From: Zymomonas mobilis subsp. mobilis ATCC 10988
GTDB lineage: Bacteria; Pseudomonadota; Alphaproteobacteria; Sphingomonadales; Sphingomonadaceae
Direction: 5' to 3'
NCBI RefSeq assembly: GCF_000175255.2
Contig: NC_017262.1
Location: 690,001-722,000 of the forward strand
DNA: 32,000 bases
Part shown: positions 1 through 28,701 of the stretch, in pieces
How positions within the stretch are numbered: position 1 is the stretch's first letter
Layout of the letters: the number at the start of each line of letters is the position of its first letter
Notes under the pieces: model-generated
Database searches by the model: none
The model's input: only the letters and a program-made list of their open reading frames with translations
What the model was told of the DNA's origin: nothing
Made by a program: the position numbers and the translations under genes

Positions 1-18
1 TAATTCCTATGCAAAGCA

Positions 19-241: not shown

Positions 242-273
242 GCATATCGTTTTGAAGATAAGGAGTATACCGA

Positions 274-699: not shown

Positions 700-736
700 C
701 AAGATTGATTTTTCTTCATTTTTTCTAGATTTATCC

Positions 737-782
737 GGCTTTCGGTGCCTATTCTTCACGATGTGGGGTGGCGCCGAAAGCC
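737..782 (+). terminator. 13-bp stem (one G-U pair) with a 20-nt loop between ohr and gyrA; possible ohr terminator or gyrA leader structure
   Basis: GGCTTTCGGTGCC (737-749) pairs with GGCGCCGAAAGCC (770-782) and is followed by TTCTTACGTT. The structure contains the GTG at 768 that the ORF track used as the gyrA start. Confidence 0.35.
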
Positions 783-854
783 TTCTTACGTTACAAGAAG
801 GCAAGCGTTTCCCAGACGCCTATTTATGTCCACTTAATCGGAAGATATGATCCC

Positions 855-3545: not shown

Positions 3546-3572
3546 GCGGCCAAGCCGCCGCTTCTTCTCATT
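3545..3572 (+). terminator. Short GC hairpin (GGCGGC-CAA-GCCGCC) with a T-rich tail after gyrA
   Basis: 6-bp GC stem at 3545-3559 overlapping the gyrA stop codon, followed by GCTTCTTCTCATT. Confidence 0.35.
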
Positions 3573-3593
3573 AATTGTAAGTGAATTTTGATA

Positions 3594-4934
3594 ATGCAGC
3601 CTGTCAATATTATCGGTGGAGGCCTTGCCGGTTCAGAAGCCGCATGGCAACTTGCTAGCCGACAAATTCCGGTCAGACTTTTTGAAATGCGTGGGCGTGA
3701 AAAAACGCCTGCGCATAGCACAGATAAGTTAGCTGAATTGGTTTGCTCCAATAGCTTCCGGTCAGATGATCCCAACAGCAATGCCGTCGGCGTGTTACAT
3801 GCTGAAATGCGGAAAATGGGCTCTCTGATTATGATGATAGCTGATCAGCACCGTGTTCCTGCCGGATCAGCGCTGGCTGTTGATCGTGAAGGTTTCGCAG
3901 AAGCCGTAACCAATAGATTACAAAATCATCCTTTAATCGAGATTCACCGCGAGCGGATTGACCATATCCCCGATGAAACTACGATTATTGCATCGGGACC
4001 TTTGACTTCTGACAGTTTAGCCAATGCTATCACGGAATTAACCGGTCGGGATGCGCTTTCCTTTTTTGATGCTATTGCACCGATTGTCTATCGAGACAGC
4101 ATTGATATGGATATCGCCTGGTTCCAATCCCGCTGGGACAAAGGCGATGGTCATGATTATATCAACTGCCCTTTGAACAAAGAGGAATATCTCGCTTTTC
4201 ACGCGGCCTTATTGGCAGGGGAAAAGGGTGATTTTCATGAGTGGGAAAAAGATACCCCTTATTTCGAAGGATGCATGCCTATCGAAGTCATGGCCGATCG
4301 CGGCATTGATACCCTCCGTTTTGGGCCCATGAAACCTGTAGGACTGGATGATCCTCGAACAGGACGATGGCCTTATGGCGCGGTGCAATTAAGGCAGGAT
4401 AATGCTCTTGGCACCCTTTGGAATATGGTCGGCTTTCAAACCAAGTTAAAATATGCCGAACAAATTCGTGTTTTCAGAATGATACCAGGACTAGAAAAAG
4501 CTGAATTTGCTCGGTTAGGGGGAATGCATCGGAACAGCTTTATTCGTTCCCCTGTCCTACTGGATGAATATTTACGTCTGAAAAAACAGACTAACATCCG
4601 TTTTGCTGGTCAGATTACCGGTTGTGAAGGTTATATTGAATCGGCTTCAATCGGATTGTTAGCAGGTATTTTTACTGCCGCAGATAAACTCGATAGGAAG
4701 GTTTCTTCTCCTCCAGTCGAATCAGCTTTAGGTGCATTATTGGGACATATCACTAAAAACGCTGATCCTGACCACTACCAGCCTATGAATATCAATTTTG
4801 GGTTATTTCCACCTATTTCGGAAAAACATCCCAAAAAACAGCGAAAAGCTATGATGGCGGAAAGAGCTAGAAAAGCCCTTGATCAATGGATCTCCGAAGA
4901 GGCTTTTCTGAAAAGCTCTATTTTAGAGCAGTAA
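3594..4934 (+). CDS. trmFO: Methylenetetrahydrofolate--tRNA-(uracil54-C5)-methyltransferase TrmFO (Gid)
   Basis: N-terminal FAD-binding motif [14 protein letters not shown], about 446 aa, with TrmFO-type sequence throughout. ATG at 3594; the ORF track began at TTG 3588. Confidence 0.9.
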
Positions 4935-4970
4935 ACTTTATTATATTGCTCATCTTTGTTAAAAATTATG

Positions 4971-5016
4971 TATCGATAAAAGATAAATATCATTTATCTT
5001 TTATCGATATTTTTTG
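4971..5016 (+). terminator. Rho-independent terminator after trmFO (18-bp perfect AT-rich stem plus T6)
   Basis: TATCGATAAAAGATAAAT (4971-4988), loop ATC, ATTTATCTTTTATCGATA (4992-5009), then TTTTTT. Confidence 0.6.
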
Positions 5017-6863
<1,847 letters not shown>

Positions 6864-6927
6864 TTCTGACTTAACCTATTTGGGTTAAACAGACTTATTT
6901 TTCCTGTTTTAGGAAAATAGTTAAAAA

Positions 6928-6961
6928 GGCGTTATTGGTTCTTCCAATGACGCCTTTTTTT
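6928..6961 (+). terminator. Rho-independent terminator after gfo
   Basis: GGCGTTATTGG / CCAATGACGCC stem (one G-U pair), loop TTCTT, then a T7 run. Confidence 0.8.
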
Positions 6962-7072
6962 ATAAACAAAAAAATCCTTTTGTCGGTTTTATAAAAATAC
7001 TTCATATTTTGATAAGCCGCCTTAAAAATATAATAAATTTTTATAATATTTATCCGATCAAAGGACCCCTTT

Positions 7073-8020
7073 ATGCTAGAAGTCATTATATCGGCATTAC
7101 TACCGATTATAATTACTTTAATGATAGGTTTTTTCGCTGGCTGGCGTGGTGAATTTACGGCAAATCAAGCCTCGACCTTGAATAAAATGGTCTTACGCTA
7201 TGCCTTACCTATGACTTTATTCTCTGGGATTTTATCACTTCCCAAAACACAGATTTTATCGTCGGGTTCTGCCGCAATTATTTTACTTTTAGCCATGGCT
7301 GGCGGCTATCTAATTACACTTGGGATAGGATATTTTGTCTGCCAGCGCCCAGTGAATGAATCTGCTCTTTTAGCTCTTTCTGTTAGCGCACCTGCAGTTC
7401 CTTTTGTTGGCATAACAGTTCTAGGGCATTTATTTGGCACTGCCAGCACGATATTGGTTTCAATATGTAGCCTGATGATGAACCTCGTGCAGGTTCCCGT
7501 TACCATTTTTCTTTTGTCAGCGTATTCCCCAAAAAAGAATACTGACAAAATAGCCACGGATAGTTCTTTTTTTTCTCATATCAGACATGCTTTTACCGAA
7601 CCTATTGTTATTGCCCCTATTCTAGCTCTTATCTGTGTCAGTCTCTCTATTCCTTTCCCTGAAACCTTAAAATCTTCTTTAATGCTACTAGGAAAAGCGA
7701 CCGGAGGCGTTGCGCTTTTCTCTTCTGGTATAATTTTATTTTCTCGAAAAGTTATTTTAAGTAAAACAGTAGCATCTTTAGTTTTATCAAAAAATATTAT
7801 TATTCCAACAGCGGTATGGGTTCTTGCGTCTATAAATAAAACCCCTCCCCTTATCATTGAACAGACAACAATCACTATGGCTATTCCCAGCGCAGCCATC
7901 ACAACCATGCTAGCCATCCGATATCAATTGATGGAACAGGATATGGCTTCGACTTTATTTTTTAGCACAATTTTATCTATTATCTCTATGGGAGGATTTA
8001 TTCTTCTAACCGCCATTTAA
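7073..8020 (+). CDS. AEC (auxin efflux carrier / Mem_trans) family permease
   Basis: 315 aa, about 10 predicted hydrophobic segments. The N-terminus and overall organisation are typical of AEC-family transporters. Confidence 0.7.
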   Translation: MLEVIISALLPIIITLMIGFFAGWRGEFTANQASTLNKMVLRYALPMTLFSGILSLPKTQILSSGSAAIILLLAMAGGYLITLGIGYFVCQRPVNESALLALSVSAPAVPFVGITVLGHLFGTASTILVSICSLMMNLVQVPVTIFLLSAYSPKKNTDKIATDSSFFSHIRHAFTEPIVIAPILALICVSLSIPFPETLKSSLMLLGKATGGVALFSSGIILFSRKVILSKTVASLVLSKNIIIPTAVWVLASINKTPPLIIEQTTITMAIPSAAITTMLAIRYQLMEQDMASTLFFSTILSIISMGGFILLTAI

Positions 8021-8083
8021 ATTATGTAAGGAGAGCCGGCTTTCTAGAATCGGAAATGCTACGTCAAAAAGGTTTTCTCTTTT

Positions 8084-9745
8084 ATGTCTGATACAAAGTC
8101 TACGGTGGCGAAGCTGTTAGTTAAATGCCTTGAAGCCGAAGGCGTCGAATATGTTTTTGGTATCCCGGGTGAAGAAAATATCCGTCTTATTGATGCCATG
8201 GCGGATTCTTCTATCCGTTTCATCCTGGTTCGCCATGAACAAGGTGCATCCTTTATGGCGGATATGTATGGTCGCCTAACTGGCAAGGCCGGTGTTTGCA
8301 CCGCAACCTTGGGGCCCGGTGCCATCAATCTTTTACTGGGCGTTGCCGATGCTCAAACCGATAGCACCCCTATGGTTGCCATCAGTGCGCAAGTCGGTCT
8401 TAACCGTATTTATAAAGAGTCTCATCAATATATTGACCTTCAGGGCATGTTTGCCCCTGTTACTAAATGGTCAGACACGATCCTGACGCCAGCATCCGTG
8501 CCAGAAATGATGCGGAAAGCCTTTGACCTTGCCCAAAGAGAGCGCCCTGGTGCGGTTTATCTAGCAGTACCACAGGATTTAGAAGAATCTGATGTCTCTG
8601 CGGATTTAAAGCCAATCACCGTCCATCCGGTTCACACAACAGCACCAGATCCTGATCAGGTAGCTGCCACGATTGATTTGATTAAGAAGGCAAAGCAGCC
8701 AATCATTCTGGCGGGTCACGGCGTTGCTCGTAGCCATGCATCAAAACAGCTCATTGAATTGTCTGAACTTTTAAACGTTCCGGTTGCAACTACCTTTATG
8801 GCAAAAGGTGTCATTCCTGATCGCCACCCCAATGCTCTGGGTGTTGCTGGCTTTATGCGCCGCGACTATGAAAATTTTGCGTTTGATGCAGCTGATGTCA
8901 TTTTGTCAGTTGGATATGAATTGCAGGAATTTGCACCTTCAAAAATCAATCCTAATCACGACAAAAAGATTGTCCATATCCATCATTTTGCTGAAGATAT
9001 CGATGCAGCTTATCCGGTAGCCATTGCTATTGAAGCGGATATCGACAAATCTTTGGATGCGTTGATTGATGGATTGAAGAAAACAACTTTCCCGAAATTC
9101 GACAATCATGCCAAAATTAAACAGATCAAAAAAGAAGAATTAGACGGGAATGCGGATGATCAGAGCTTCCCGCTGAAACCACAGCGGATTATCTCTGATA
9201 TCAGAAAAGCTATGGGCGATGATGATATCGTTCTGGCTGATACAGGCGCTATCAAAATGTGGATGGCTCGCCTCTATCCGACCCAAAAGCCTTCGACTTG
9301 TTTAATTTCAAATGGTCTCTCTACGATGGCCTTTGCGCTACCAGGTGCTTTGGCTGCTAAACTTGCCTGCCCTGACCGGAAAGTTCTCGCTGTAATGGGC
9401 GACGGCTCATTCCTGATGAATTCACAGGAAATTGAAACAGCTATCCGCGAAAATATTCCGCTGGTTGTGCTGATCTGGGTCGATGACGCTTATGGCCTTA
9501 TTAAATGGAAAATGGATCTGGAAATAAAGCATCACCGCGATGTGGACTTTACCAATCCTGATTTTGTTCAATATGCAGAAAGTTTCGGGGCTAAAGGCTA
9601 CGAAATCAAAAGTGCCGATATGTTGTTACCTGTCATTGAAAAAGCATTAGCCGATGATGGTGTGTCTATCATCGCTTGCCCAGTAGACTACGCAGAAAAC
9701 AACAAATTGACCGATAAATTAGGTGATCTGACGATCACAATCTAA
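8084..9745 (+). CDS. Thiamine-diphosphate-dependent acetolactate synthase, catabolic AlsS-like (no small subunit adjacent)
   Basis: 553 aa with N-terminal FGIPGEEN...RHEQGASFMADMYGRLTGKAGVC...LGPGAINL and a ThDP/Mg motif region (GDGSFLMNSQEIET). Confidence 0.8.
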   Translation: MSDTKSTVAKLLVKCLEAEGVEYVFGIPGEENIRLIDAMADSSIRFILVRHEQGASFMADMYGRLTGKAGVCTATLGPGAINLLLGVADAQTDSTPMVAISAQVGLNRIYKESHQYIDLQGMFAPVTKWSDTILTPASVPEMMRKAFDLAQRERPGAVYLAVPQDLEESDVSADLKPITVHPVHTTAPDPDQVAATIDLIKKAKQPIILAGHGVARSHASKQLIELSELLNVPVATTFMAKGVIPDRHPNALGVAGFMRRDYENFAFDAADVILSVGYELQEFAPSKINPNHDKKIVHIHHFAEDIDAAYPVAIAIEADIDKSLDALIDGLKKTTFPKFDNHAKIKQIKKEELDGNADDQSFPLKPQRIISDIRKAMGDDDIVLADTGAIKMWMARLYPTQKPSTCLISNGLSTMAFALPGALAAKLACPDRKVLAVMGDGSFLMNSQEIETAIRENIPLVVLIWVDDAYGLIKWKMDLEIKHHRDVDFTNPDFVQYAESFGAKGYEIKSADMLLPVIEKALADDGVSIIACPVDYAENNKLTDKLGDLTITI

Positions 9746-9831: not shown

Positions 9832-10254
9832 TTATTTTATATCTTCATGATTTCGGCTTCTGTCTATAGAGGCAAGGTCTTCTTTGTTTAAAAATCCATC
9901 ATGATCTTGATCTGCCTGATCAAAATGTCTGACCGCAGAAGCGGCATACTCATCGAAACTCAGCATGTTATCATGGTTTTTATCTAGCCGTTCAAATGCT
10001 CTTTTGCGTCCAGCTAAATATTCATCGCGGCTTATTTTCTGATCATGATCTAAATCTAGATGTTCAAAATGCCGACTAAACTTATTATTTATATAAGTAT
10101 TTTTTGCATTTTCGGCATATATTCGTACAGGAGATGTCGATTTAATTGACTTTGAAATAATATCAGATGCTCGCCCCGAGCGGCATAATAAAAATACGCC
10201 AGAAGCAATAAGAATAGCGACTCCACCTAGAATAAATGGCAATTTATCTTTCAT
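9832..10254 (-). CDS. Small membrane-anchored or secreted EF-hand calcium-binding protein
   Basis: 140 aa with an N-terminal hydrophobic segment (LPFILGGVAILIASGVFLL). Three EF-hand-like loops: DLDHDQKISRDEY, DKNHDNMLSFDEY, DQDHDGFLNKEDL. Confidence 0.65.
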   Translation of the reverse strand: MKDKLPFILGGVAILIASGVFLLCRSGRASDIISKSIKSTSPVRIYAENAKNTYINNKFSRHFEHLDLDHDQKISRDEYLAGRKRAFERLDKNHDNMLSFDEYAASAVRHFDQADQDHDGFLNKEDLASIDRSRNHEDIK

Positions 10255-10409
10255 AATCTAAAAATCTTGTCTTTAAGAAGAGAAATCGAATATTAAGATT
10301 TGTCTTTAAAAATTTTATTACTTTTTATATCAGAAAAAATGAATTTCTTCAGCATAAAAATGATGAATAATTCATAAATGCCATGAATATTTCAAATATA
10401 AAATACTGC

Positions 10410-10430
10410 CTAGGTTCTGTTGACAAAGGA
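10410..10430. repeat. Left terminal inverted repeat of the IS (CTAGGTTCTGTTGACAAAGGA)
   Basis: Reverse complement of 11244-11264 with one mismatch. Confidence 0.85.
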
Positions 10431-10485
10431 TATAATTTAAAATTTTTAGAGATAAATTGAGAACAAGTTTTGTAGGGTAGACAGG

Positions 10486-10902
10486 ATGCGAGGAGATCTG
10501 ACGGACGCGGAGTGGGAGATAATAGAGGGTCTTCTTCCAAGCGAACGAGGCCGTTGCGCGCGTCCCGCCAAAAGTAATCGGTTATTTCTCAATGGTATGC
10601 TTTATGTGCTTCGAACAGGCTGCCCGTGGCGAGACATGCATGAACGTTATGGGAAATGGAATTCGGTCTATGTTCGGTTTCGTAGGTGGGCGGAACAGGG
10701 TGTGTGGGACGCTCTTCTTGAAACCCTGGTTGACCTTGGCCTGACAGATGACTGGCAACATATGATAGATAGTACGATTATTCGCGCCCACAGCCAAGCA
10801 GCTGGCGCAAAAGGGGGACGTATAAGGAAGGCTTTGGTCGCAGCCGCGGAGGCTTTACGAGCAAGATCCACGCCCGTTCCGATGGTCAAGGCCGCCCTCT
10901 AG
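10486..10902 (+). CDS. IS5/IS427-group transposase, OrfA (N-terminal DNA-binding part)
   Basis: 138 aa beginning MRGDLTDAEWEIIEGLLP...LRTGCPWRDM, typical of the DUF4096/IS5 N-terminal domain. Confidence 0.85.
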   Translation: MRGDLTDAEWEIIEGLLPSERGRCARPAKSNRLFLNGMLYVLRTGCPWRDMHERYGKWNSVYVRFRRWAEQGVWDALLETLVDLGLTDDWQHMIDSTIIRAHSQAAGAKGGRIRKALVAAAEALRARSTPVPMVKAAL

Positions 10903-11264
10903 CTTTCGCACTAACCGGTGGTGAGGTTTCTGATTATTCTGGCGCTGATAGCTTGATAGATATCCCTGTCACAACACCCCGCTGTTTTCTCGCTGATAAA
11001 GGATATGATAGCGATAGGTTACGCGAAAAACTGCTTTTTCGAGGCATTCTTCCTGTTATCCCGCCTCGTTCCAATCGAAAAAAGCCTATTCCTTATAATC
11101 TCCAGCACTACAAAGATCGTAATCGTATTGAGCGGATGTTTAATAAGCTAAAGCAGTTCAGGCGCATTGCCACACGCTATGACAAAACCAGAAAATCTTT
11201 CCTCGCCTTCCTTCATCTCGCGGCCGTAAAATTGTGGTTACCTTCCTTTGTCAACAAAACCTAG
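10809..11264 (+). CDS. IS5/IS427-group transposase, OrfB (DDE catalytic part), reached by a -1 frame change from OrfA
   Basis: The -1 frame is open from 10773. From the A-AAA-GGG-GG run at about 10809-10817 it reads ...GRSRGGFTSKIHARSDGQGRPLAFALTGGEVSDYSGADSLIDIP... and continues into the listed 10953-11264 ORF. The exact slip site is inferred. Confidence 0.75.
   Translation, partial: KRGTYKEGFGRSRGGFTSKIHARSDGQGRPLAFALTGGEVSDYSGADSLIDIPVTTPRCFLADKGYDSDRLREKLLFRGILPVIPPRSNRKKPIPYNLQHYKDRNRIERMFNKLKQFRRIATRYDKTRKSFLAFLHLAAVKLWLPSFVNKT
11244..11264. repeat. Right terminal inverted repeat of the IS (TCCTTTGTCAACAAAACCTAG)
   Basis: Reverse complement of 10410-10430 with one mismatch. Confidence 0.85.
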
Positions 11265-11438
11265 ACAAGGTTTATTATTATCATGCTCTGGAAAACTGAT
11301 ACCAATATGCTGGCTACCCAACCGCACTAATTCTAAATGCAGTAGAGAAAATAGCTTTTCCATGATAATATGAGGGGCTATTTCCTGATTAGGTAAGATA
11401 TAGATATCCTGATAGGAATCGACAGGATTAGCTAGCAT
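11262..11438 (-). pseudogene. cas6f: cas6f (csy4) remnant: N-terminal ~59 codons only, truncated by the IS
   Basis: MLANPVDSYQDIYILPNQEIAPHIIMEKLFSLLHLELVRLGSQHIGISFPEHDNNKPCL aligns by eye with the first third of Csy4/Cas6f (MDHYLDIRLRPD...LFGKLHQALV...RIGVSFPD). The reading frame then runs into the IS inverted repeat (FVDKGR-stop). The ATG overlaps the csy3 stop codon. Confidence 0.8.
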
Positions 11439-12471
11439 CCCCAAAGACTCCCCCTCTTACTAATACAGCTATCACAAAATGCTGGTCTTCGATTGCAGGC
11501 TCTTTATCTTTTAATACCCAAGCATCCAATAAATTGTAAAAGTCTTTTTTTGCCTTTGGCTGGCGATAAGCGACCCCTTGCGTTGTAACAGAGCCATAAG
11601 GTTCAACTGCAATCGGGCCATTGATTTCGGCGTCAGGATACCATGTATCAATAGTTCTTAAGGCATTCCCAATTTTTTGAGAATGAATAGCTGCAATCGC
11701 CTTTTCATCTTGACCAACGCTGTAGAGAAAACGGCTTTTCGTGCTTTTTCCTTTATCAAGCAGCAATTCCTGCGAAGGGAATACTTCCTGTCCTGCTCCC
11801 ATGCGAATAAAAGCTTTTACGCGGAGCAAAACATGTTCCTGCCCAGCTAAGCCTGCCGTTATCAGTTTCGCCAAGGCTTCTAACTCTTCTGAAACTGACT
11901 TCTCTTCAAATTGACGGAGAGGATGCGCTAATGCATCAAAAATACCGACTAGAGTTGATTCCTCACCGCTTAATCGAGTTATTTGAATAGATATAGCATC
12001 CGCACCCAAGCGATTCCGCCATAGGAAACGACCATTTGCCAAATTAGCAGCGTATCGATTCCCTAAAATATCAAGTCCATGAGTATCAATATAATGGCTG
12101 ATAGTAGCCACTAATTTAGAACGATACTCCATACTATTACAGGCAGCAGGCTCACCAACGCCGCCCAAAACACGCAAAGTAAATTCTACTTTCAGTGTAT
12201 CACTATCAAAAGGCAGCGTCGCAACATCCACCGTTTGCAGATTGGGCTTTTCGATAGCCGCCTTCAACTTGATTGGATCATCTCCAGTCTTTGAAGGAAT
12301 ACGGTTGGAAATTGTGCCACGAACCGATTTTTCGCGCAAATGAATTGGTTGCCATGCCGTATCATCGTCTTTGTCGCTCCAATTACCAGAAAAAAACAAA
12401 GCATCGGAAGGATCTAATTTACGCTCAAAAGATAGAACAGACGCTGTTTTTAAATTCTTTTCTTCAGACAT
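11428..12471 (-). CDS. csy3: Type I-F Cascade backbone subunit Csy3 (Cas7f)
   Basis: ASVLSFERKLDPSDALFF, REKSVRGTISNR, ANLANGRFLWRNR, IHSQKIGNALRTIDTWYP and IAVEPYGSVT closely parallel P. aeruginosa Csy3. Start taken at ATG 12471 (MSEEKN), not the upstream 12504. Confidence 0.93.
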   Translation of the reverse strand: MSEEKNLKTASVLSFERKLDPSDALFFSGNWSDKDDDTAWQPIHLREKSVRGTISNRIPSKTGDDPIKLKAAIEKPNLQTVDVATLPFDSDTLKVEFTLRVLGGVGEPAACNSMEYRSKLVATISHYIDTHGLDILGNRYAANLANGRFLWRNRLGADAISIQITRLSGEESTLVGIFDALAHPLRQFEEKSVSEELEALAKLITAGLAGQEHVLLRVKAFIRMGAGQEVFPSQELLLDKGKSTKSRFLYSVGQDEKAIAAIHSQKIGNALRTIDTWYPDAEINGPIAVEPYGSVTTQGVAYRQPKAKKDFYNLLDAWVLKDKEPAIEDQHFVIAVLVRGGVFGDAS

Positions 12472-12519
12472 AATAAAAACCTTCTTAATTTTCCTGAAAA
12501 ACAAAATATATAAGCGATA

Positions 12520-13533
12520 TCATAAAGAATATTGGTAAAAATTATGACAACGATAAACGCTTTTTTCTATAATATTCTTTTCCCCCAAGAATGAAGACGG
12601 ATACCATAATAAATCATTGGGGTGTTTTAGACGGAAAGGCGCAATCCATTCCCCTATCGAAAACAGGCTTTCAACAGGCTGGAAAGGAATAGTATTATCT
12701 CGGGCAGAAGATACCGATCCAGATGGCTGCATTTCACCGACTGCACCATAGCCAACAGGAATAGGGACGATCCAACCATTGTCTTGATCGTTTTCCCATA
12801 TATTTTCTTTTTTTGTTTCGGTTTTTGGAGATTGGGCTTCGCTTTTACACCGCCAATTGACGCGTGATAATGAAAGCCACGCATCCAAAGAGGTCGCCTC
12901 TGGCTGGGTCTCCTGCATTTTTTTTAAGCGTTCAGCAATAAGGCCACTTCGCTCAACCAGAGCATAGCCCGGCAAAAGACGATAACAATTTTTACGATAA
13001 TCAGAAAAGTTATTATCGTTATCAGAAGAAGTATTACATTCTATCCAATGCGGTTTCCTATGCTTCGCCATATTGGGAGAGGGAGGTATAATACTTCCGC
13101 CAGCAATACGCATATTTTGCGCAATAACAGCTATCTTTTCGACATACTCGTCAATTTGGTAATTTTCTTTACCCTCACCTTTAAAGGCAATAGCGAGCAA
13201 TAAAGAGACATCAAGATGGATACGCCCTTCTTCAATGATTGGCGCTGTTTTCCCGCCTTTTTCAATTGGATTACGCGTCAGATTAAAAGCATAAGTAAAA
13301 CCGCTATCTGTCACCTGCTCCTGAAAATCATGACAAATAACCCCCACTGCATTAAACATTATATCGTCAATACCAGCGGCATGAGCTTTGCGCTCTAATG
13401 CCCACATAAAACCCATAAAGGCTGTGATAGAAGGGAATCCATGCGTAAGCGGGCTAGAAATAGCATTGGCATTTTGCACCCTGATATGAGGCAAAATCAA
13501 CATATGGCTTGAGAAGGGTAATTCTGTTTCCAT
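12520..13533 (-). CDS. csy2: Type I-F Cascade subunit Csy2 (Cas5f)
   Basis: VQNANAISSPLTHGFPS and FNLTRNP motifs, 337 aa, in the expected position in the operon. Confidence 0.9.
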   Translation of the reverse strand: METELPFSSHMLILPHIRVQNANAISSPLTHGFPSITAFMGFMWALERKAHAAGIDDIMFNAVGVICHDFQEQVTDSGFTYAFNLTRNPIEKGGKTAPIIEEGRIHLDVSLLLAIAFKGEGKENYQIDEYVEKIAVIAQNMRIAGGSIIPPSPNMAKHRKPHWIECNTSSDNDNNFSDYRKNCYRLLPGYALVERSGLIAERLKKMQETQPEATSLDAWLSLSRVNWRCKSEAQSPKTETKKENIWENDQDNGWIVPIPVGYGAVGEMQPSGSVSSARDNTIPFQPVESLFSIGEWIAPFRLKHPNDLLWYPSSFLGEKNIIEKSVYRCHNFYQYSL

Positions 13534-13544
13534 GCAACTAACTC

Positions 13545-14879
13545 CTATGCCCGTCTACGCCACGGCACTGGCCATGCTGCATCTATGGTGACTTGTCTGA
13601 CCCAGTGAATATATTCTGTGTCGCCCACGGGTATATCTTGATGTTTCAGCTTCGCATTCAATCTACGCCCGAAATTCTGCGCCACGGCATCAGGCCAATC
13701 ACCTTTCATATACTCATTATAAAAAATCTGATCGGCCTCATCCGAACCATCACGAAGAGAAAAAAGGCTTCTTTCAGGGTCTAGCCATAATTTTTCATAC
13801 GGAGGCAATTGACAGCTATCCTCCCGACTCCACCCAACAGGCATTTCGGCTTTTATAGTCGCAGCAAAATCGACAAGGCTTTCTGTTAATTTCTGTTCAA
13901 ACCTTTGCCGATACTGACGTGTATTCAGGTTATCTGGCGGATTTGATTTCAGGAATTTTATCAATCTATCAACCTGACCATAAACGTCATCTCTTTTAAA
14001 AAAGACTTCTAGGGCTGACTTACAATTTAAAGGCAGAAGCCGTCTTTTATTCTTCCAACGAGGGGGTAAGGATGCCAAAAGGTAATTAACGCCTCCTCGT
14101 TCAAAATTAAGTTGCGATATATTTTGTGGCTTTGTCCCTCCCAGCCTTTGAACTGCCAGTTTTTTATATTCCTGATAGACTAACTCAGAGGCTTCTTTTT
14201 TATAAAAAGCCGATCGGGCTTCCTTATTACTCTCACCGAAACGTACGGCCTGAATATTTTGATGGACATAGTTAACTAATGCGCTCGGGAATAAAGGTTG
14301 CAGCAAAATATACTGATCATCTTCAGTCGGGTCTTTCCCTCGCAACCAATAAAGCTGCTTCATCAAGGCATGGGACTGCACTTTTTTATCCGAAGACAAC
14401 AAGCCGGCAAAAGAAGAAATCCATTCTTCTGCCTGATCAGGATTTTTAGACAAGGCCGCTTTAAAATCAGGATCACCTGCTTCAGCCCACGCTAACAAGG
14501 TCTTATCTTCAACCTTTGTTTTTAAAAATTTGAAGACATCCAAGGCGGCAGCATTACCGACAATATCTATATCAAAATTTTCACCTAAAAGATGCGATCC
14601 GATTTCTTCTCTCTGTGGTAGAGAATCCGGTTTTATATAAAGATTGCTTCCTTTAGCCGATGAATGAATAGCTTTGGCGATATGGGTAGCCGCATGAATC
14701 TGCCCTACTCTTCTTGCCGCATCTTCTAGCCAAATAGCATAGTCATATTTACGCATTGCAGCGAGATCATCTGCTTTGCCCTTCAATTTTTCATCACGAC
14801 GATTCTTAATAAAATCAGAAATAGCCTGACGAAAAATCTGTATTCTTGCATTATTATGCTGCATAATCTTTTCCATCAT
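13545..14879 (-). CDS. csy1: Type I-F Cascade large subunit Csy1 (Cas8f)
   Basis: GNAAALDVFKFL and GGTKPQNISQLN motifs, 444 aa, in the expected position in the operon. Confidence 0.9.
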   Translation of the reverse strand: MMEKIMQHNNARIQIFRQAISDFIKNRRDEKLKGKADDLAAMRKYDYAIWLEDAARRVGQIHAATHIAKAIHSSAKGSNLYIKPDSLPQREEIGSHLLGENFDIDIVGNAAALDVFKFLKTKVEDKTLLAWAEAGDPDFKAALSKNPDQAEEWISSFAGLLSSDKKVQSHALMKQLYWLRGKDPTEDDQYILLQPLFPSALVNYVHQNIQAVRFGESNKEARSAFYKKEASELVYQEYKKLAVQRLGGTKPQNISQLNFERGGVNYLLASLPPRWKNKRRLLPLNCKSALEVFFKRDDVYGQVDRLIKFLKSNPPDNLNTRQYRQRFEQKLTESLVDFAATIKAEMPVGWSREDSCQLPPYEKLWLDPERSLFSLRDGSDEADQIFYNEYMKGDWPDAVAQNFGRRLNAKLKHQDIPVGDTEYIHWVRQVTIDAAWPVPWRRRA

Positions 14880-14891
14880 TTCTGAATAATA

Positions 14892-17800
14892 TTAACTGTG
14901 ATATTTAGAAAATCCAAGAATATCATTATAATTATATCCAGATATACTTTCTAAAACATTTACTTTTGTCATATATTCAGCACATTTATACAGGGAAATA
15001 CCAAGATTTTCAGACTGTTCTTCTAATAAATTTTCAAGACTATCAGCCTGCCATGCGGTTATATCGGAGCCATAATCAATTTCGACCGGATGTTTTTTTT
15101 CCCGTTCAACAAGAATATACGGATTATGACTATTTTCGGGATTCTTATATTCCTGATAAAGTTCCAGTTTTTCGCCATCTTCGTCAGGTAAAAATAGAAG
15201 AGTCTCTTCTCTTAAGGTTTTTTCTCTAAATGGCTGCCATTGGGGCAAAACACCCGTCAGACTAGCCTGAGGATATTGCCAACAAAGAGCCGCCATTTCC
15301 TCTTTTGGTTCCAATTTTTTGGGAGAACGGCTACTACCCCCCACAACTTCTCCAAGGTTTTTCTCTGGCAACATAGATTCACAAATACGTGCTTGTTCCA
15401 GATCAGACATTCTTTCTTGGCTATGCCGCTCTTCTTTGGGTTGCGGAGCTATGCGAGGCAAAGCCGTGATAATCTTATATTCTTCTGGTCTTAAAATTTT
15501 GCTTAACCAATGATTTTCAAGATAAAATCGATTGTCGCCATATGGAGTTTTAGGCTTCTCAAATCCTGGATGCCAAAAAACAGCCCCTGCAGGATTTTTA
15601 AAATAACGCAGAGCGGTATTCAAAATAGCGATATTCGGTTTTTCAGCAGATTTTCTTCTATGTCGCTGTACACGCCCTGCCAATTGGATGAGCGCGCGCA
15701 TAGAGGAAGGTTCAGTAATCGCCCAATCCAAATCCCAATCACGCCCTACCTCGCAAACAGGCGATGCTAATATAATAAAGGCGTGATCCTGTTCTGGATT
15801 GTTATCCAAAATCTCTCGGATATCCGCATGATGATAGACAAAGTCAGCCTCGCGGCGATTCAGCACCCTATCCAGCATATTTTCGATAGCTGAACGCTGG
15901 ATTAGAGGGAAACGCGCATGGTAGACACATAAATGGATATGCGTATCACGGCGACCACCTAAGGCAAAAAAATCTTTTGCGACATGAAATAGCGGTTCAA
16001 TATTAGCCATTCTGATCAGACCGAAACTAACTTTTCTTCCTGTAATCGGGTCTTTTTCAGCAAAGCCTTCATGCAAATCCAAGGCAGTCTTGCGTAATAT
16101 TGAAGCAAAATTTTTATATAATACCTTATCGTCTGGCGTTCCAACCACCTCATCCAAAGGCACGATTTCGCCTTTACAGATAGCGTCACTTTTCAAAAGC
16201 TTCTGCTTACGCCGCTTTACAAAATCATCATGCGCCTGCTCAAACTGATTGGCATCGGCACAATCAGCATGAGTAGTTCCAAATTCGTCTATCCACAAAC
16301 AAGGGATATCCTGCGCTGCCAGAGATAGACTAGGGTCATGATTTAATTGATAGCATTTCCGACCGGCAAGATAAGCCTGATACATACCCGAGACCAAGGA
16401 AGGCGGTAATGTGGCTGAAGACAATAAAACACGACTACCCAACAGACCTGCCCAATAGACCAATCGAGTTAAGGCGGGTAAATCCTTCAAATCATAATCA
16501 TCCAATTCATCTAAAACGAGATCAGCCCCCATCAAACGCAGCATGGGTGCGATTTGTCGCCCGCCCCGCAAAGATTCGGTTGCAGGAACCAGATGATCAA
16601 CGGTACAAACCAGAACTGGTGCGGATAAAAGGCTTCGTATTCTAGGATCATGCCCCAAACGGCTCAATAAAGGATGGCTGGCTTCACAGCCTTCATATGA
16701 AATATAGCTATCTTCTTCCAATAGATCCAAAGAGGAAGCTGAACCAGATTCTTCAGCCTTATCTGAATAATAGTCAAATAGGGTTTTACTGGCACTTCCT
16801 CCAACTAAAATAGCCAGATCATTGTCATTCAGATGTAAATCTTTTTGATAAGATTTTCCGGTTTGCAAAGTGAGTGCTCTCAATCCCAACGCATAGGTCA
16901 GACGCATCCCTTTTTCAGGGTTGGCCATGGCATTGATAATACGAGCACTAGCAAGAGTTTTTCCTGTTCCCGTAGAGGCCATACAGACACAGAAAGCTCC
17001 TTGCCTTTCGGTTTTTTCGCGCAGGGCTGTCGCCATATCAGCAGCCTTATCTTGCCACGAAAAACGGGGATTCTGGCTTCTCTTCTTTAATCCTTTATGT
17101 TTGGCTAAACGGGGCAAATATTCAGAAAAATTCGGCAATGCATGGGCGATAATTCCGGCATCTCTTGCCACACCCAATAAATGCTCACTCAAGCCTTGTT
17201 TCCGCTCACCTTGACTGTCTGTGTTGGCATAAAGAAAATCATCTCCGCTATAAGATAGTTCTTTGGTAGCGGCCATACGGTCTTTTGATTCTGGAGGAAG
17301 GCTAGAATAATAGTGATCCGCCAACATCAGACTCAAACGTGCCAGATGCATAAGATAAGGATTATCAAGCCCGTTTTTTCCGATGTCTTTTTTCTTGGCC
17401 AAAGCCAATAAACGCTTCGCTATTCTGGAAGCCTGTTTTTGCCATTCCGGTAACAAAACCGGAAATTTTTCTTTTTTGTCGATATCCCAATAGGCTTTTA
17501 TTTGAGCTGGTGATGCCTGATTGTCAGTTATTTCATTCCATAAAGAGGTTATCTTATTTAATGGATCTGTGAGGATCCCAAGTCTTACCGATTGGGGCTT
17601 TTTACCCAAATAGGCCTGTTCTCTACGGTCTTTTTTTTCAATATAAACAGGCAGTAACGGAATACGATGATGAGAAACGATTAACCATCCAATCGCTGCC
17701 GCCAAAGGCGGTAAAGATTTAAAGGGATAGCAGTCCTCTCCATTCAAGGCATCGACTCCATCTTTTTTATACCGTTTTTTCGCCACCCAGTCTTTTATTG

Positions 17801-18332
17801 AATAGTTGCCTTCTAACAGACGGGTTAACCAGACCTCATCCGTATCCTCCCCGACGAAAGCCTGAAATAACCGTAAAGAAACCCATTCATGGCGGTATAG
17901 ATTACGAGATTTTTCTCTCGACTGCAGACGCCTTTGAAAAGCTTTGCTGGCCTTTCCCAAATCATGCAACAAAGCGGCCATTTGCGCCAACATCTGAATA
18001 TCTTCGGCGGTTATCCAATCATTTTCATCCTGTTGGCGTAAAATATTTCGGGTAGTGCTATTGGTCGGGACAGCGCCTTCATTATTAAAACGGCTGGCGT
18101 CCCCAACTATCCAAAGTAAATCACACTGCCCACCCCCATGTAACCAATGACAGGCAACAGAAGTATTTCGCCTTGCTGTTTTTCTCAATAATTTTTGAAC
18201 AGTAGCCAAGCCTATTTGCGTGATAGGCGTTTGCCAGCTTCGACTTCCCTTCCGTTCAGCAAACTGATCAAGGATTCGCCGCGTTTCTTTCAGAGCATTG
18301 TTGTCGCATTGCGAAACGAATAGAACATTCAT
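14892..18332 (-). CDS. cas3: Type I-F Cas2-Cas3 fusion nuclease/helicase (Cas2/3)
   Basis: 1146 aa. The N-terminal Cas2 part (MNVLFVSQCDNNALKETRRILDQFAERKGSRSWQTPIT) is followed by an HD motif (LLHDLGKAS) and helicase Walker A (ASTGTGKT) and DExD-like (VLDELDD) motifs. Confidence 0.93.
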   Translation of the reverse strand: MNVLFVSQCDNNALKETRRILDQFAERKGSRSWQTPITQIGLATVQKLLRKTARRNTSVACHWLHGGGQCDLLWIVGDASRFNNEGAVPTNSTTRNILRQQDENDWITAEDIQMLAQMAALLHDLGKASKAFQRRLQSREKSRNLYRHEWVSLRLFQAFVGEDTDEVWLTRLLEGNYSIKDWVAKKRYKKDGVDALNGEDCYPFKSLPPLAAAIGWLIVSHHRIPLLPVYIEKKDRREQAYLGKKPQSVRLGILTDPLNKITSLWNEITDNQASPAQIKAYWDIDKKEKFPVLLPEWQKQASRIAKRLLALAKKKDIGKNGLDNPYLMHLARLSLMLADHYYSSLPPESKDRMAATKELSYSGDDFLYANTDSQGERKQGLSEHLLGVARDAGIIAHALPNFSEYLPRLAKHKGLKKRSQNPRFSWQDKAADMATALREKTERQGAFCVCMASTGTGKTLASARIINAMANPEKGMRLTYALGLRALTLQTGKSYQKDLHLNDNDLAILVGGSASKTLFDYYSDKAEESGSASSLDLLEEDSYISYEGCEASHPLLSRLGHDPRIRSLLSAPVLVCTVDHLVPATESLRGGRQIAPMLRLMGADLVLDELDDYDLKDLPALTRLVYWAGLLGSRVLLSSATLPPSLVSGMYQAYLAGRKCYQLNHDPSLSLAAQDIPCLWIDEFGTTHADCADANQFEQAHDDFVKRRKQKLLKSDAICKGEIVPLDEVVGTPDDKVLYKNFASILRKTALDLHEGFAEKDPITGRKVSFGLIRMANIEPLFHVAKDFFALGGRRDTHIHLCVYHARFPLIQRSAIENMLDRVLNRREADFVYHHADIREILDNNPEQDHAFIILASPVCEVGRDWDLDWAITEPSSMRALIQLAGRVQRHRRKSAEKPNIAILNTALRYFKNPAGAVFWHPGFEKPKTPYGDNRFYLENHWLSKILRPEEYKIITALPRIAPQPKEERHSQERMSDLEQARICESMLPEKNLGEVVGGSSRSPKKLEPKEEMAALCWQYPQASLTGVLPQWQPFREKTLREETLLFLPDEDGEKLELYQEYKNPENSHNPYILVEREKKHPVEIDYGSDITAWQADSLENLLEEQSENLGISLYKCAEYMTKVNVLESISGYNYNDILGFSKYHS

Positions 18333-19306
18333 AATGCAGGCTCGGCCTCCATACTCAAAGCAATCTTTTTGATTGTATCAATCATAAAATCGAGCGATTC
18401 ACTATGGGTAAGAGCGGCTATAGATTTCTGCCTAAAAGACGATTCTTCATCGCCTGCCATCGCCGAAAGGAAGGCCTGCGGTAAGATAGTCGCATCTTTA
18501 ACCAGATCAGCGACATCAAACACCAACCCGCCGCGGCGTGTTTTCCCGTGCAGTATCGCCAATCCATGAGGAATTCCCAAAACCCAGGTCGCAGTAGCAC
18601 CAAGGCCATAAGCCAAATAATTTCCGTGATCTAAAAAACGGTTTGCAGGATCGATACCAGTTCCTCTTTTGGATCGGGTAAAATCGCCATATCCAACGGT
18701 TTCGGAGGCGAGCTTGAACAAAGCCTTTGTCAGTCTGGCTTCTTCGATCAAAAGCGTCGCAATATCAGAAGCCCTTTCTATCGCATGTTCGCTTTGATGG
18801 AGCAAAGCCGATAAACGGCGTTCATCAGGTAAAAAGCCATCTTTACCAAGAGAAGACTTAAGCCACTGTTCCTTTATACGACTGCTTCTGGCTAATTGTA
18901 ACGCTTTCACCGCCCGTAAACGCTTTTCGTCATCGAACCAGAATTTAACCCATGCTTGCACATATTCCGTAGGCCGATATTCGCTTTGTGGAGAAAACCA
19001 CAAAACATCTGTTTCTTGCTCATTCGCAGAAAATAACGGTGTCCCTCCGCCTCCACAAAAGCCAACCAAAACACCGGATTTTCCCAATTCACGCATAGCT
19101 GCCTGCGTTATGGATGTGCCCGTACCCAATAGAATAGTGGTCGTATTCGCTATAGGAATATTCCAATAAAGAGACTTGTTACCACGGTCGGTAATATATT
19201 CGACCCGTCCCCCATTCACCAAAACCCGACAATGCTCTAAATAATAGATATTTGCCCGTTTCGAATGTAAAATAGTTTTCAGATCGCCCGATGTTATTGG
19301 CTTCAT
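18329..19306 (-). CDS. cas1: Type I-F Cas1 integrase
   Basis: LKTILHSKRANIYYLEHCRVLVNGGRVEY, GTGTSITQAAMRELGKSGVLVGFCGGGGTPLF and LHGKTRRGGLVFDVADL are near-identical in pattern to I-F Cas1. Start taken at ATG 19306 (MKPITS). The stop overlaps the cas2-3 start (ATGA). Confidence 0.93.
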   Translation of the reverse strand: MKPITSGDLKTILHSKRANIYYLEHCRVLVNGGRVEYITDRGNKSLYWNIPIANTTTILLGTGTSITQAAMRELGKSGVLVGFCGGGGTPLFSANEQETDVLWFSPQSEYRPTEYVQAWVKFWFDDEKRLRAVKALQLARSSRIKEQWLKSSLGKDGFLPDERRLSALLHQSEHAIERASDIATLLIEEARLTKALFKLASETVGYGDFTRSKRGTGIDPANRFLDHGNYLAYGLGATATWVLGIPHGLAILHGKTRRGGLVFDVADLVKDATILPQAFLSAMAGDEESSFRQKSIAALTHSESLDFMIDTIKKIALSMEAEPAL

Positions 19307-19719
19307 AGAAAATCTTCTGTATCTACAATGGCTAATTTTATTATTAGAATGTAGACTGTTGTACATTTAAAATATTTTATAAATACTAAATAAAATCTGC
19401 ATTTTATATATTTATGACATATAAATTTATCACGAGAATTTTTGAAATTACATTTTTAAAACAAATATTTAAGACTCTTATTTATTTAGGACGAGCAATC
19501 GTAAATATTACAAACAGAAATAAAATATTTAAATTTTTAAAAAATAAGACTTGTCACTAAATTTAGCTTTCATAAAAATTTTATCCAACAGGTCTTCATT
19601 TTTACTTTGGATACCAGAAGATAATAGCAACCATTCTTCTGCTCACTGAATGCCTCAAATGAACAGAAATATGGACATGCCCATCCACTATCATATCTTG
19701 ACCAAGGAATACGGATAGA
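19307..19719. promoter_or_regulatory. Very AT-rich divergent intergenic region (cas operon promoter side and nitroreductase promoter side)
   Basis: About 400 bp between the minus-strand cas1 and the plus-strand nitroreductase gene. Long A/T runs and no CRISPR repeats. No specific boxes are claimed. Confidence 0.4.
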
Positions 19720-20343
19720 ATGTCTCGCGCCCCTCATTCCGCCTCAAATATTCCCCAACCCCGCATTGCAGATTACCCAATTGATCCTGTTTTTCTGAAA
19801 CGTTGGTCGCCCTTGTCTTTTTCCTCAGAGGAAATATCCAAAGACCAACTCTATTCCTTACTAGAAGCTGCGCGTTGGACGCCTTCCGCCTATAACTCAC
19901 AACCTTGGCGTTTCGTCTATGCTATGCGGGACTCGGCGATCTGGTCGGGCTTTATCGATTTACTAATGGAAGGGAATCGCGGTTGGGCAAAACAGGCAGC
20001 GGCTATCATTTTCATTATTTCAAAAACAACGCTTTTATCTCCCATCAGCAATACAGAAAAAGACGCTCCAAGTCATAGTTTTGATGCTGGCGCCGCATGG
20101 ATGGCAATGGCACTTCAGGCGACTCGAATGGGTCTCGCCACGCGCCCAATGACAGGGGTATATTTTGATAAGGCGCGGCAGCTTTTAAAAGTGCCTCAAA
20201 ATTATCATATTGATGCCGCGATTGCAGTCGGTCATCCAGACACCCAAAGCGCACCAGAAGAATCACATAGCCGTCGTCTAAAATTTTCAAATATGCGCCA
20301 CTCTATCCATGATATGAGTAGAGAAGGTTATTTTAAATTTTAG
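19720..20343 (+). CDS. Nitroreductase-family flavoprotein
   Basis: 207 aa with RWSPLSF...LLEAARWTPSAYNSQPWRF, typical of the nitroreductase fold. An AAGGA ribosome-binding site lies upstream. Confidence 0.75.
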   Translation: MSRAPHSASNIPQPRIADYPIDPVFLKRWSPLSFSSEEISKDQLYSLLEAARWTPSAYNSQPWRFVYAMRDSAIWSGFIDLLMEGNRGWAKQAAAIIFIISKTTLLSPISNTEKDAPSHSFDAGAAWMAMALQATRMGLATRPMTGVYFDKARQLLKVPQNYHIDAAIAVGHPDTQSAPEESHSRRLKFSNMRHSIHDMSREGYFKF

Positions 20344-28461: not shown

Positions 28462-28701
28462 TCAGGCAACGAAGATCAGCAGAATCGAGATAACGAATGA
28501 CAGAAGACCCAAAAGTTCAGCAGCGGCGAAACCGATGAACAAACGGCCCTGCTGGCCATCGGCCGCAGCCGGATTACGCAGTGCGCTTTCAAGGAAGCCA
28601 GCGAAAACGCTACCAACGCCAACGGAAGCAACACCGGCACCAACAGCAGCAACACCACCACCGACTAACTTACCGAGCACTCTTGCAGCTTCAACGTCCA
28701 T
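28462..28701 (-). CDS. atpE: F0F1 ATP synthase subunit c
   Basis: 79 aa two-helix proteolipid with the RNP loop (ALRNPAA) and the conserved carboxylate helix (FAAAELLGLL). Confidence 0.92.
   Translation of the reverse strand: MDVEAARVLGKLVGGGVAAVGAGVASVGVGSVFAGFLESALRNPAAADGQQGRLFIGFAAAELLGLLSFVISILLIFVA

What the first reader, a model, noticed from the sequence alone, without database searches (positions are those of the whole stretch)
11428..19719. No CRISPR array on either side of a type I-F cas operon whose five other genes remain intact
I scanned both flanks and all intergenic regions of the window for 28-bp I-F-type repeats (GTTCACTGCC...GGCAGC...GAAA) or any regularly spaced direct repeats. 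I found none. Meanwhile cas1, cas2-3, csy1, csy2 and csy3 are full length. Tight translational coupling is preserved (cas1/cas2-3 ATGA overlap, csy3/cas6f overlap). So either inactivation is very recent, or the remaining genes are kept for another reason. Possible reasons are use of distant orphan arrays, or a non-canonical role.
Basis: seen in the sequence. Interest (0 to 1): 0.6.

Follow-up and report, generated by a model that had tools for sequence, protein, structure and literature searches.

The report
Known array-less Zymomonas cas operon, IS-broken

Summary
No CRISPR-like repeat exists in the 32-kb window. cas1, cas2-3, csy1, csy2 and csy3 are full length and cas6f is a 60-residue stub. 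The interpretation needs correcting. The window is Zymomonas mobilis subsp. mobilis, ATCC 10988 lineage. Every other Z. mobilis strain examined, including ZM4 where the system is experimentally active, has the same operon between the same housekeeping genes with no array within about 10 kb. Published work places the arrays elsewhere in the chromosome: over 500 kb from the operon where record coordinates allow a comparison (NCIMB 11163, CP4). It already describes these as isolated cas loci working with remote CRISPRs. It also lists ATCC 10988 as the only strain lacking csy4. So the missing array is ancestral and was not lost with cas6f. The new detail is mechanistic. An 849-bp IS5-family element replaces 673 bp (cas6f codons 61-193 plus about 265 bp downstream), and sits between two pre-existing CTAG sites. 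The other five genes carry only 15 lineage-private codon changes (omega about 0.32). This fits recent inactivation rather than retention for another role. Low interest; already known.

The parts
18329..19306 (-). cas1 (type I-F Cas1f, 325 aa). The ORF is open to 19366, but the start conserved across strains is 19306.
   Evidence: TIGR03637 532.7 bits, profile 1-306/307. Same 325-aa call in all strains. 98.8% identical to ZM4.
14892..18332 (-). cas2-3 (fused Cas2/Cas3f, 1146 aa). Its ATG overlaps the cas1 stop (ATGA).
   Evidence: TIGR02562 1142.5 bits, 1-1109/1110. ATGA overlap read. 96.7% identical to ZM4, with no residue private to this lineage.
13545..14864 (-). csy1 / cas8f (439 aa)
   Evidence: TIGR02564 364.9 bits. 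95.4% identical to ZM4. Carries 5 of the 8 lineage-private amino-acid changes.
12520..13533 (-). csy2 / cas5f (337 aa)
   Evidence: TIGR02565 273.5 bits. 94.1% identical to ZM4.
11428..12471 (-). csy3 / cas7f (347 aa)
   Evidence: TIGR02566 452.9 bits, 1-340/341. 95.1% identical to ZM4.
11238..11438 (-). cas6f stub: 60 Cas6f residues (M1-G60, including the catalytic-His equivalent H34), followed by 6 IS-encoded residues and a stop
   Evidence: Pfam Cas_Csy4 positions 1-48 of 181, against 1-181 for the 193-aa protein of intact strains. Alignment to P. aeruginosa Csy4 shows that the Arg-rich helix and the C-terminal domain are missing. Junction sequence.
10413..11261 (+). IS5-family insertion sequence of about 849 bp (ends uncertain by 2 bp). 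It has 17-bp terminal inverted repeats GTTCTGTTGACAAAGGA / GTTTTGTTGACAAAGGA. The transposase is in two frames (10486-10902 and 10812-11264) joined by a -1 slip at GCAAAAGGGG (10808). It is transcribed convergently to the cas operon.
   Evidence: NF033580 transpos_IS5_3 on both ORFs. Inverted repeat I1. Frames and slip site. Called as a single 259-aa product in the public assembly. 92-96.5% identical copies occur only on Zymomonas plasmids.
10410..10413 (.). Left junction CTAG. In IS-free strains this CTAG lies 673 bp from the right-junction CTAG.
   Evidence: CP4/L151: CTAG at 12327-12330 and 13000-13003.
11261..11264 (.). Right junction CTAG inside cas6f codons 59-60. It also supplies the transposase stop codon TAG.
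19307..19719 (-). AT-rich cas1 upstream region (presumed operon promoter). No repeat remnant.
   Evidence: 99.5% identical to ZM4 over 413 bp, with 2 mismatches. No repeat-like sequence.

Best explanation
This is the chromosomal type I-F1 CRISPR-Cas operon of Zymomonas mobilis subsp. mobilis, in the ATCC 10988 ('Drainas') lineage. In this species the operon is always an 'isolated' cas locus. It sits between a nitroreductase/leuB block and an EF-hand/TPP-enzyme/gfo/gyrA block, with no array nearby. It works in trans on three or four arrays that carry the standard 28-nt I-F repeat and lie elsewhere in the chromosome. In this lineage a Zymomonas IS5-family element landed at a CTAG in cas6f. Then 673 bp up to the next CTAG were lost, either by a second local transposition or by recombination between two copies. 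That removed Cas6f residues 61-193 and about 265 bp of downstream intergenic DNA. The 60-residue stub keeps the catalytic histidine but lacks the RNA-binding arginine-rich helix and the C-terminal domain. Pre-crRNA should therefore not be processed and the Csy complex should not assemble. I infer that interference and spacer acquisition are both off. The other five genes look intact simply because the event is recent and there has been no time for decay. Shown here: identity, synteny, absence of arrays, IS boundaries, the deletion, and intactness of the five genes. Taken from the literature: the remote arrays and ZM4 activity. Inferred: loss of function and recency.
For: Organism and lineage: exact Csy3 look-up hits GCA_006716005.1 (uvs51), a derivative of ATCC 10988. 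Family assignment. The same flanking genes and an intact 193-aa cas6f occur in all other strains examined, including ZM4, NCIMB 11163 and CP4. No I-F repeat appears in 33 Zymomonas loci totalling 576 kb, which include about 10 kb of the same genome beyond window position 1 (L013); the cas1 side is covered by 12.7 kb of the window itself. The IS replaces 673 bp between two pre-existing CTAG sites. An independent read-set assembly (SRR3925454) ends 23 nt inside the IS at the same junction. The Cas6f stub lacks the RNA-binding part. The five genes are colinear with ZM4 at 94-99% amino-acid identity, with no stops, 7 synonymous and 8 nonsynonymous private codons, and omega about 0.32. The promoter region is 99.5% identical to ZM4. 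Literature: ZM4's I-F system is active with four arrays not shown adjacent to the operon (PMC6868425). Z. mobilis isolated cas loci with remote CRISPRs, ATCC 10988 included, were described in 2017 (PMC5294841). ATCC 10988 arrays with the I-F repeat lie at 125 kb, 830 kb and 1812 kb, and its cas gene list lacks csy4 (PMC5919020 Table S1). I-F adaptation and interference need an intact Csy complex and crRNA (PMC4678832). Another IS-split gene in this lineage is reported in PMC8088579.
Against: I could not read the remote arrays of this genome with the tools. Loss of function is inferred from the truncation, not measured. Omega of 0.32 on 15 changes cannot separate 'recent and neutral' from 'still under selection'. 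csy1 carries 5 of the 8 private amino-acid changes, which could be early relaxation or a recombination tract.
Confidence: 0.85

Rival explanations
1. The system is still functional. The five intact genes are kept by selection because crRNAs from the remote arrays are matured by another nuclease or by a second Cas6f encoded elsewhere.
For: Remote arrays with 6, 3 and 8 spacers persist in ATCC 10988. Private-branch omega of about 0.32 is below 1. The promoter is intact.
Against: No Zymomonas plasmid in PLSDB encodes a Cas6f. The published cas inventory of ATCC 10988 lists no csy4. Cas6f is an integral subunit of the Csy complex, and the stub lacks every RNA-binding element. Fifteen changes are too few to show selection.
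Confidence: 0.07
2. The IS-mediated deletion also removed a CRISPR array that used to lie just downstream of cas6f. On this view the array loss and the cas6f loss are one event.
For: Many I-F systems carry an array directly after cas6f (general knowledge). The deletion extends about 265 bp beyond the cas6f stop.
Against: In all IS-free strains the cas6f-to-EF-hand interval is only about 420-440 bp and contains no sequence within 8 mismatches of the repeat. The missing 673 bp can be read in full in L004.
Confidence: 0.01
3. The remaining genes serve a non-canonical role independent of crRNA, for example Cas1-Cas2/3 in DNA repair or Csy proteins in regulation. That role would explain why they remain intact.
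For: Only the absence of decay. Such roles have been proposed in general for orphan cas loci (PMC5294841).
Against: No feature of the locus differs from the canonical, immunity-active ZM4 operon apart from the lesion. Cas2-3 has no private amino-acid change. Recency explains the intactness more simply.
Confidence: 0.04
4. The IS junction is an assembly artefact and cas6f is intact in the real genome.
For: IS copies are repeated and often cause misassembly.
Against: The same structure appears in a 1.7-Mb contig that spans both junctions, and in two further look-up places collapsed as similar (contigs over 1 Mb by the block counts). An independent short-read assembly breaks exactly at the junction. 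A published table built from the separate ATCC 10988 genome lacks csy4.
Confidence: 0.01

Closest known systems
[quoted passage not shown] 2019, PMC6868425)
   Same: Same gene order (cas1, cas2-3, csy1, csy2, csy3, cas6f). Same chromosomal neighbours. Amino-acid identity of 94-99%. Upstream region 99.5% identical. No array within about 10 kb of the operon.
   Different: ZM4 has a full 193-aa Cas6f and shows crRNA processing and plasmid interference. Here Cas6f stops after residue 60 because an IS replaces 673 bp.
'Isolated cas loci' functioning with remote CRISPRs (Zhang and Ye 2017, PMC5294841)
   Same: The locus meets their definition: at least 3 cas genes and no array within 10 kb. Z. mobilis, ATCC 10988 included, is one of their worked examples. 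They find that 12% of type I cas loci are isolated.
   Different: That paper treats the ATCC 10988 locus as a 'complete' subtype I locus. It does not mention that cas6f is truncated.
IS-inactivated cas operons in other bacteria (general knowledge, not tested here)
   Same: A mobile element disrupts one cas gene and leaves the rest looking intact. This is a common route to loss of CRISPR immunity.
   Different: Here the lesion is an IS-associated 673-bp deletion between two CTAG target sites, not a simple insertion with a target-site duplication.
Type I-F3 Tn7-associated (CAST) systems
   Same: A type I-F effector whose array arrangement is atypical and whose role is non-canonical.
   Different: I-F3 lacks cas1 and cas2-3 and sits beside tnsABC/tniQ. 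This locus has full cas1 and cas2-3, and no Tn7 genes appear among the called neighbours.

Membership tests
Type I-F1 CRISPR-Cas | I-F type cas1 | tested here: met
   TIGR03637 532.7 bits against a cutoff of 150, full profile.
Type I-F1 CRISPR-Cas | Fused cas2-cas3 (Cas3f with an N-terminal Cas2 domain) | tested here: met
   TIGR02562 1142.5 bits, 1-1109/1110. Pfam Cas3_I-F_Cas2 on the product.
Type I-F1 CRISPR-Cas | csy1/cas8f, csy2/cas5f and csy3/cas7f | tested here: met
   TIGR02564, TIGR02565 and TIGR02566 are all above cutoff and near full length.
Type I-F1 CRISPR-Cas | Full-length cas6f/csy4 endoribonuclease | tested here: not met
   Only 60 of 193 residues remain, matching profile positions 1-48 of 181. 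The locus is therefore a defective member of the family.
Type I-F1 CRISPR-Cas | CRISPR array with the 28-nt I-F repeat next to the operon | tested here: not met
   None in the window or within about 10 kb in any strain. This is true of the functional ZM4 locus as well.
Type I-F1 CRISPR-Cas | Cognate arrays somewhere in the same genome | not testable with these tools
The literature lists three I-F arrays in ATCC 10988.
Isolated cas locus (Zhang and Ye 2017) | At least 3 cas genes and no CRISPR within 10 kb | tested here: met
   The array-free zone covers uvs51 record positions 777,335-819,060. That is 12.7 kb on the cas1 side and about 21 kb on the cas6f side.
Orphan cas locus (companion CRISPR lost from the genome) | No cognate array anywhere in the genome | not testable with these tools
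   A published table reports arrays at 125 kb, 830 kb and 1812 kb in ATCC 10988, so the locus is probably not an orphan.
IS5 family insertion sequence (NCBIfam transpos_IS5_3 type) | DDE transposase in two frames joined by a -1 frameshift | tested here: met
   NF033580 matches both ORFs. DUF4096 and DDE_Tnp_1 domains. Slip site and open frames.
IS5 family insertion sequence (NCBIfam transpos_IS5_3 type) | Terminal inverted repeats | tested here: met
   16 of 17 positions match at 10414-10430 and 11244-11260.
IS5 family insertion sequence (NCBIfam transpos_IS5_3 type) | Target-site duplication flanking a simple insertion | tested here: inconclusive
   CTAG (or TA) lies on both sides, but the two flanks are 673 bp apart in IS-free strains. 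The shared CTAG reflects two target sites, not a duplication.
Type I-F3 (Tn7-like CAST) | No cas1 or cas2-3; adjacent tnsABC/tniQ | tested here: not met
   cas1 and cas2-3 are present and full length. The neighbours are housekeeping genes.

The most novel reading that the evidence does not exclude
The five intact genes are actively retained in the ATCC 10988 lineage because they keep a Cas6f-independent activity. Examples would be Cas1-Cas2/3 acting in DNA repair or recombination, or Csy1-3 assembling on unprocessed transcripts from the remote arrays. A milder variant: the cas6f knock-out was itself selected, to relieve self-targeting by one of the strain's own spacers against its resident plasmids.
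Probability: 0.04. Interest if true: 0.5.

Novelty: already known. Interest (0 to 1): 0.12.

Why it matters
There is little of general significance. The array-less layout of the Z. mobilis I-F operon, its use of remote arrays, and the absence of csy4 from ATCC 10988 are all already in the literature. The practical point concerns native I-F genome-editing toolkits built for ZM4. They rely on the host's own Cas6f to process plasmid-borne mini-arrays. They should therefore fail in the type strain ATCC 10988 and its derivatives CU1, CU1rif2 and uvs51 unless cas6f is supplied in trans. The exact lesion, an IS5-family element plus a 673-bp deletion between two CTAG sites, also gives a simple PCR marker for this lineage.

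Tried and rejected
1. The search for related loci with Csy3 on genome contigs found no relative. The region may be masked in that collection, or the peptide words may have missed.

2. The second and last genome-contig scan used two adjacent I-F repeats, one carrying the CRISPR1-type GCATAGGC variant. So I could not read the remote arrays of this genome directly.

3. I considered walking along the chromosome from the window ends. One step, to about 10 kb beyond window position 1, found no array. I stopped there because the coordinates of the published ATCC 10988 arrays (125, 830 and 1812 kb) are not in the same frame as the uvs51 contig. In NCIMB 11163 and CP4, whose record coordinates can be compared directly with the published array positions, the nearest array is over 500 kb from the operon. 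Each further step would also have cost a full-database protein search.

4. The supplement of Zheng et al. 2019, which holds spacer, leader and primer sequences, is not available as text. I therefore could not design a Zymomonas-specific pattern.

5. My first alignment of the cas1 upstream region used the wrong strand for the window. I repeated it with BLAST.

6. I rejected the idea that an array lay in the deleted 673 bp, because intact strains show none.

7. I rejected a plasmid-borne backup Cas6f, because no Zymomonas plasmid hit was found.

8. Literature searches for any discussion of the ATCC 10988 cas6f lesion found only the table entry.
Full report
**What is in the window**

On the minus strand, from 19306 down to 11428, lie five genes. 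They match the NCBIfam type I-F equivalog models essentially end to end:
- cas1: TIGR03637, 532.7 bits.
- cas2-3: TIGR02562, 1142.5 bits, positions 1-1109 of 1110.
- csy1: TIGR02564.
- csy2: TIGR02565.
- csy3: TIGR02566.

A sixth ORF (11238-11438) matches only the first 48 of 181-184 positions of the Cas6f/Csy4 models. Directly below it are two ORFs of an IS5-family transposase (NF033580), flanked by inverted repeats. The cas1 stop and the cas2-3 start overlap as ATGA. csy3 and cas6f overlap by 11 nt, as in every other strain.

**Is there an array?**

No. Five independent checks agree:
- Tandem Repeats Finder reported only short low-complexity rows.
- The I-F consensus with 3 mismatches gave no hit.
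- A scan for the species' own repeat (GTTCACTGCCGCACAGGCAGCTTAGAAA) allowing 8 of 28 mismatches gave one hit, at 29058 inside the ATP synthase genes, which I take as chance.
- A repeat-agnostic scan looked for any pair of 23-mers at least 19/23 identical and 40-110 bp apart. It gave 0 hits in the window, 58-364 in genuine I-F arrays used as positive controls, and 0.05 on average in shuffles.
- Rfam gave no match.

**Where the window comes from**

An exact-sequence look-up of Csy3 hit GCA_006716005.1, contig VFOI01000001.1. This is Zymomonas mobilis strain uvs51. uvs51 derives from CU1rif2, which derives from CU1, which derives from the type strain ATCC 10988. ATCC 10988 was isolated from agave sap in 1924. 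The window differs from the uvs51 record at only three positions in the roughly 30 kb compared (window 1-30344): one SNP and two homopolymer indels. It is therefore a sister genome of the same lineage.

**The array-less layout is species-wide**

Look-ups with three flanking proteins returned the homologous locus from many other Z. mobilis subsp. mobilis genomes. These include ZM4 (CP023715), NCIMB 11163 (CP001722) and CP4 (CP003715).

All have the same arrangement: nitroreductase, then cas1, cas2-3, csy1, csy2, csy3 and cas6f (193 aa), then about 420-440 bp, then an EF-hand protein. None of 33 Zymomonas loci (576 kb in total) contains anything within 8 mismatches of the repeat. For the window's own genome, the array-free zone runs from 12.7 kb beyond cas1 to about 21 kb beyond the cas6f stub.

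The literature already covers this:
- Zheng et al. 2019 showed that the ZM4 system is transcribed, processes crRNAs and interferes with plasmids. It uses four arrays (CRISPR1-4) that are drawn separately from the cas cluster.
[quoted passage not shown] They name ATCC 10988 explicitly. They report that 12% of type I loci are isolated.
- Table S1 of Chen et al. 2018 places I-F arrays in ATCC 10988 at 125,014, 830,110 and 1,811,916. It also gives array positions for NCIMB 11163 (126 kb, 1255 kb, 1910 kb) and for CP4 (132 kb, 1255 kb, 1808 kb). The operon lies at about 692-701 kb in NCIMB 11163 and about 694-703 kb in CP4, so the nearest array in those strains is over 500 kb away.
- The same table lists the cas genes of ATCC 10988 as "cas1, cas3, csy1, csy2, csy3". 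It is the only I-F strain in that table without csy4.

**The cas6f lesion**

BLAST of intact loci against the window shows that L004 positions 1-9158 and 9832-20253 align to the window. The 673 bp in between are absent and are replaced by the IS.

At the sequence level the IS (about 10413-11261, 849 bp) has CTAG on each side. In IS-free strains such as CP4, L152 and L006, both CTAGs already exist, 673 bp apart. One lies in cas6f codons 59-60. The other lies in a small AT-rich hairpin of the downstream intergenic region. This is therefore an IS-associated deletion, not a simple insertion. It could have arisen in two ways, which I cannot tell apart:
- a second, local transposition event into the neighbouring CTAG, or
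- two same-orientation insertions followed by recombination between the copies.

The lost segment holds Cas6f residues 61-193 and about 265 bp of intergenic DNA. It contains no repeat.

Other features of the IS:
- Its transposase reads convergently to the cas operon.
- The transposase looks functional. The two frames join by a -1 slip at GCAAAAGGGG, and the public annotation calls a single 259-aa product.
- Copies 92-96.5% identical occur only on Zymomonas plasmids.
- The lineage has at least one other IS-split gene.
- An independent short-read assembly (SRR3925454) is 100% identical across the operon and breaks 23 nt into the IS. This argues against an assembly artefact.

**Consequence for function (inferred)**

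I aligned the intact Z. mobilis Cas6f to P. aeruginosa Csy4 (PDB 2XLI, E = 1e-43). The stub retains the equivalent of catalytic His29 (H34 here). It lacks the segment carrying the arginine-rich helix (RLRRRAIRRH) and the whole C-terminal domain.

Cas6f both cuts the pre-crRNA and stays bound as a subunit of the Csy complex (established knowledge of the family). In type I-F, naive and primed adaptation both need an intact Csy complex and crRNA (Vorontsova et al. 2015). No Zymomonas plasmid in PLSDB encodes a Cas6f that could complement. The most likely state is therefore a dead system.

**Are the other genes decaying?**

Not detectably.
- All five are the same length as in intact strains, apart from csy3, which is 346 or 347 aa among intact strains and 347 aa here. 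None has an internal stop.
- They are 94.1-98.8% identical and colinear to the ZM4 proteins.
- Pairwise dN/dS against intact strains is mostly 0.1-0.4. Among intact strains it is 0.14-0.37. The exceptions are csy1 (up to 0.69) and one csy3 comparison based on only five differences.
- Against 9-11 intact strains, only 15 codons are private to this lineage: 7 synonymous and 8 nonsynonymous, giving omega about 0.32. Cas2-3 has no private amino-acid change, while csy1 has five.
- The 413-bp cas1 upstream region differs from ZM4 at two positions.

This is what a recent lesion predicts. The numbers are too small to exclude continued selection.

**Verdict**

The 'distant arrays' idea is true of the species and was published in 2017-2019, but it explains the layout rather than the survival of the genes after cas6f was lost.

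What this analysis adds is the exact anatomy of the lesion, and the demonstration that the deletion did not remove an array. Novelty: already known. Interest: low.

Noticed in passing
L007 1117-2089 (GCA_024329495.1) and L012 1111-2089 (SRR8244582): cas1 is broken in two other Z. mobilis assemblies that have an intact cas6f. L007 has a 5-bp deletion at cas1 nt 640-644. L012 has a +T insertion at nt 155, and its cas2-3 is also 1147 aa. The I-F system therefore appears to be inactivated independently, by different lesions, in several strains, unless these are sequencing errors.
   Followed up: partly
window 11428-19306 (cas genes) compared with L004-L012 and L148-L153: The closest intact strain differs from gene to gene: L005 for cas1 and csy3 (5 nt differences in csy3), L152 for cas2-3 and csy2, and L007 for csy1. 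This mosaic pattern suggests recombination among strains inside the cas operon.
   Followed up: partly
window 13545-14864 (csy1): csy1 carries five of the eight lineage-private amino-acid changes (E20K, P34L, S254F, P292D, Q/R358K). P292D needs at least two nucleotide changes. This could be early relaxation of selection or a tract imported from an unsampled strain.
   Followed up: no
window 738, 5242, 24735: The window differs from the uvs51 record at one SNP (G versus A at 738) and two homopolymer indels (a T-run at 5242 and an A-run at 24735). The window therefore comes from a sister genome of the ATCC 10988 lineage, not from uvs51 itself.
   Followed up: partly
window 11262-11264: The transposase stop codon TAG is formed at the IS/target boundary, within the flanking CTAG. 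The reading frame is therefore closed by the target site.
   Followed up: no
window 9832-10254 (-): The gene downstream of the operon encodes a 140-aa EF-hand protein with a signal-like N-terminus. It has a weak sub-threshold match to lanmodulin LanM (38 bits against a cutoff of 135). The IS-associated deletion removed about 265 bp of its upstream intergenic region but left 159 bp before its start codon.
   Followed up: no
window 4971-5009: A perfect 18-bp inverted repeat with a 3-nt spacer (TATCGATAAAAGATAAAT / ATTTATCTTTTATCGATA) lies in the intergenic region after trmFO. It may be a terminator or an operator.
   Followed up: no
window 28612-28662: A 21-bp tandem repeat (2.4 copies, 76% matches) lies inside the ATP synthase c-subunit gene on the opposite strand. 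It probably reflects the repeated Gly/Ala-rich helix coding sequence.
   Followed up: no
L013 4717-8292 (about 2-5.5 kb beyond window position 1, uvs51 record): A 1191-aa AAA_11/AAA_12 (Upf1/Dna2-like) helicase gene lies next to yfdX, about 13 kb from the cas operon, and is conserved in all strains. I did not examine whether it is defence-related.
   Followed up: no
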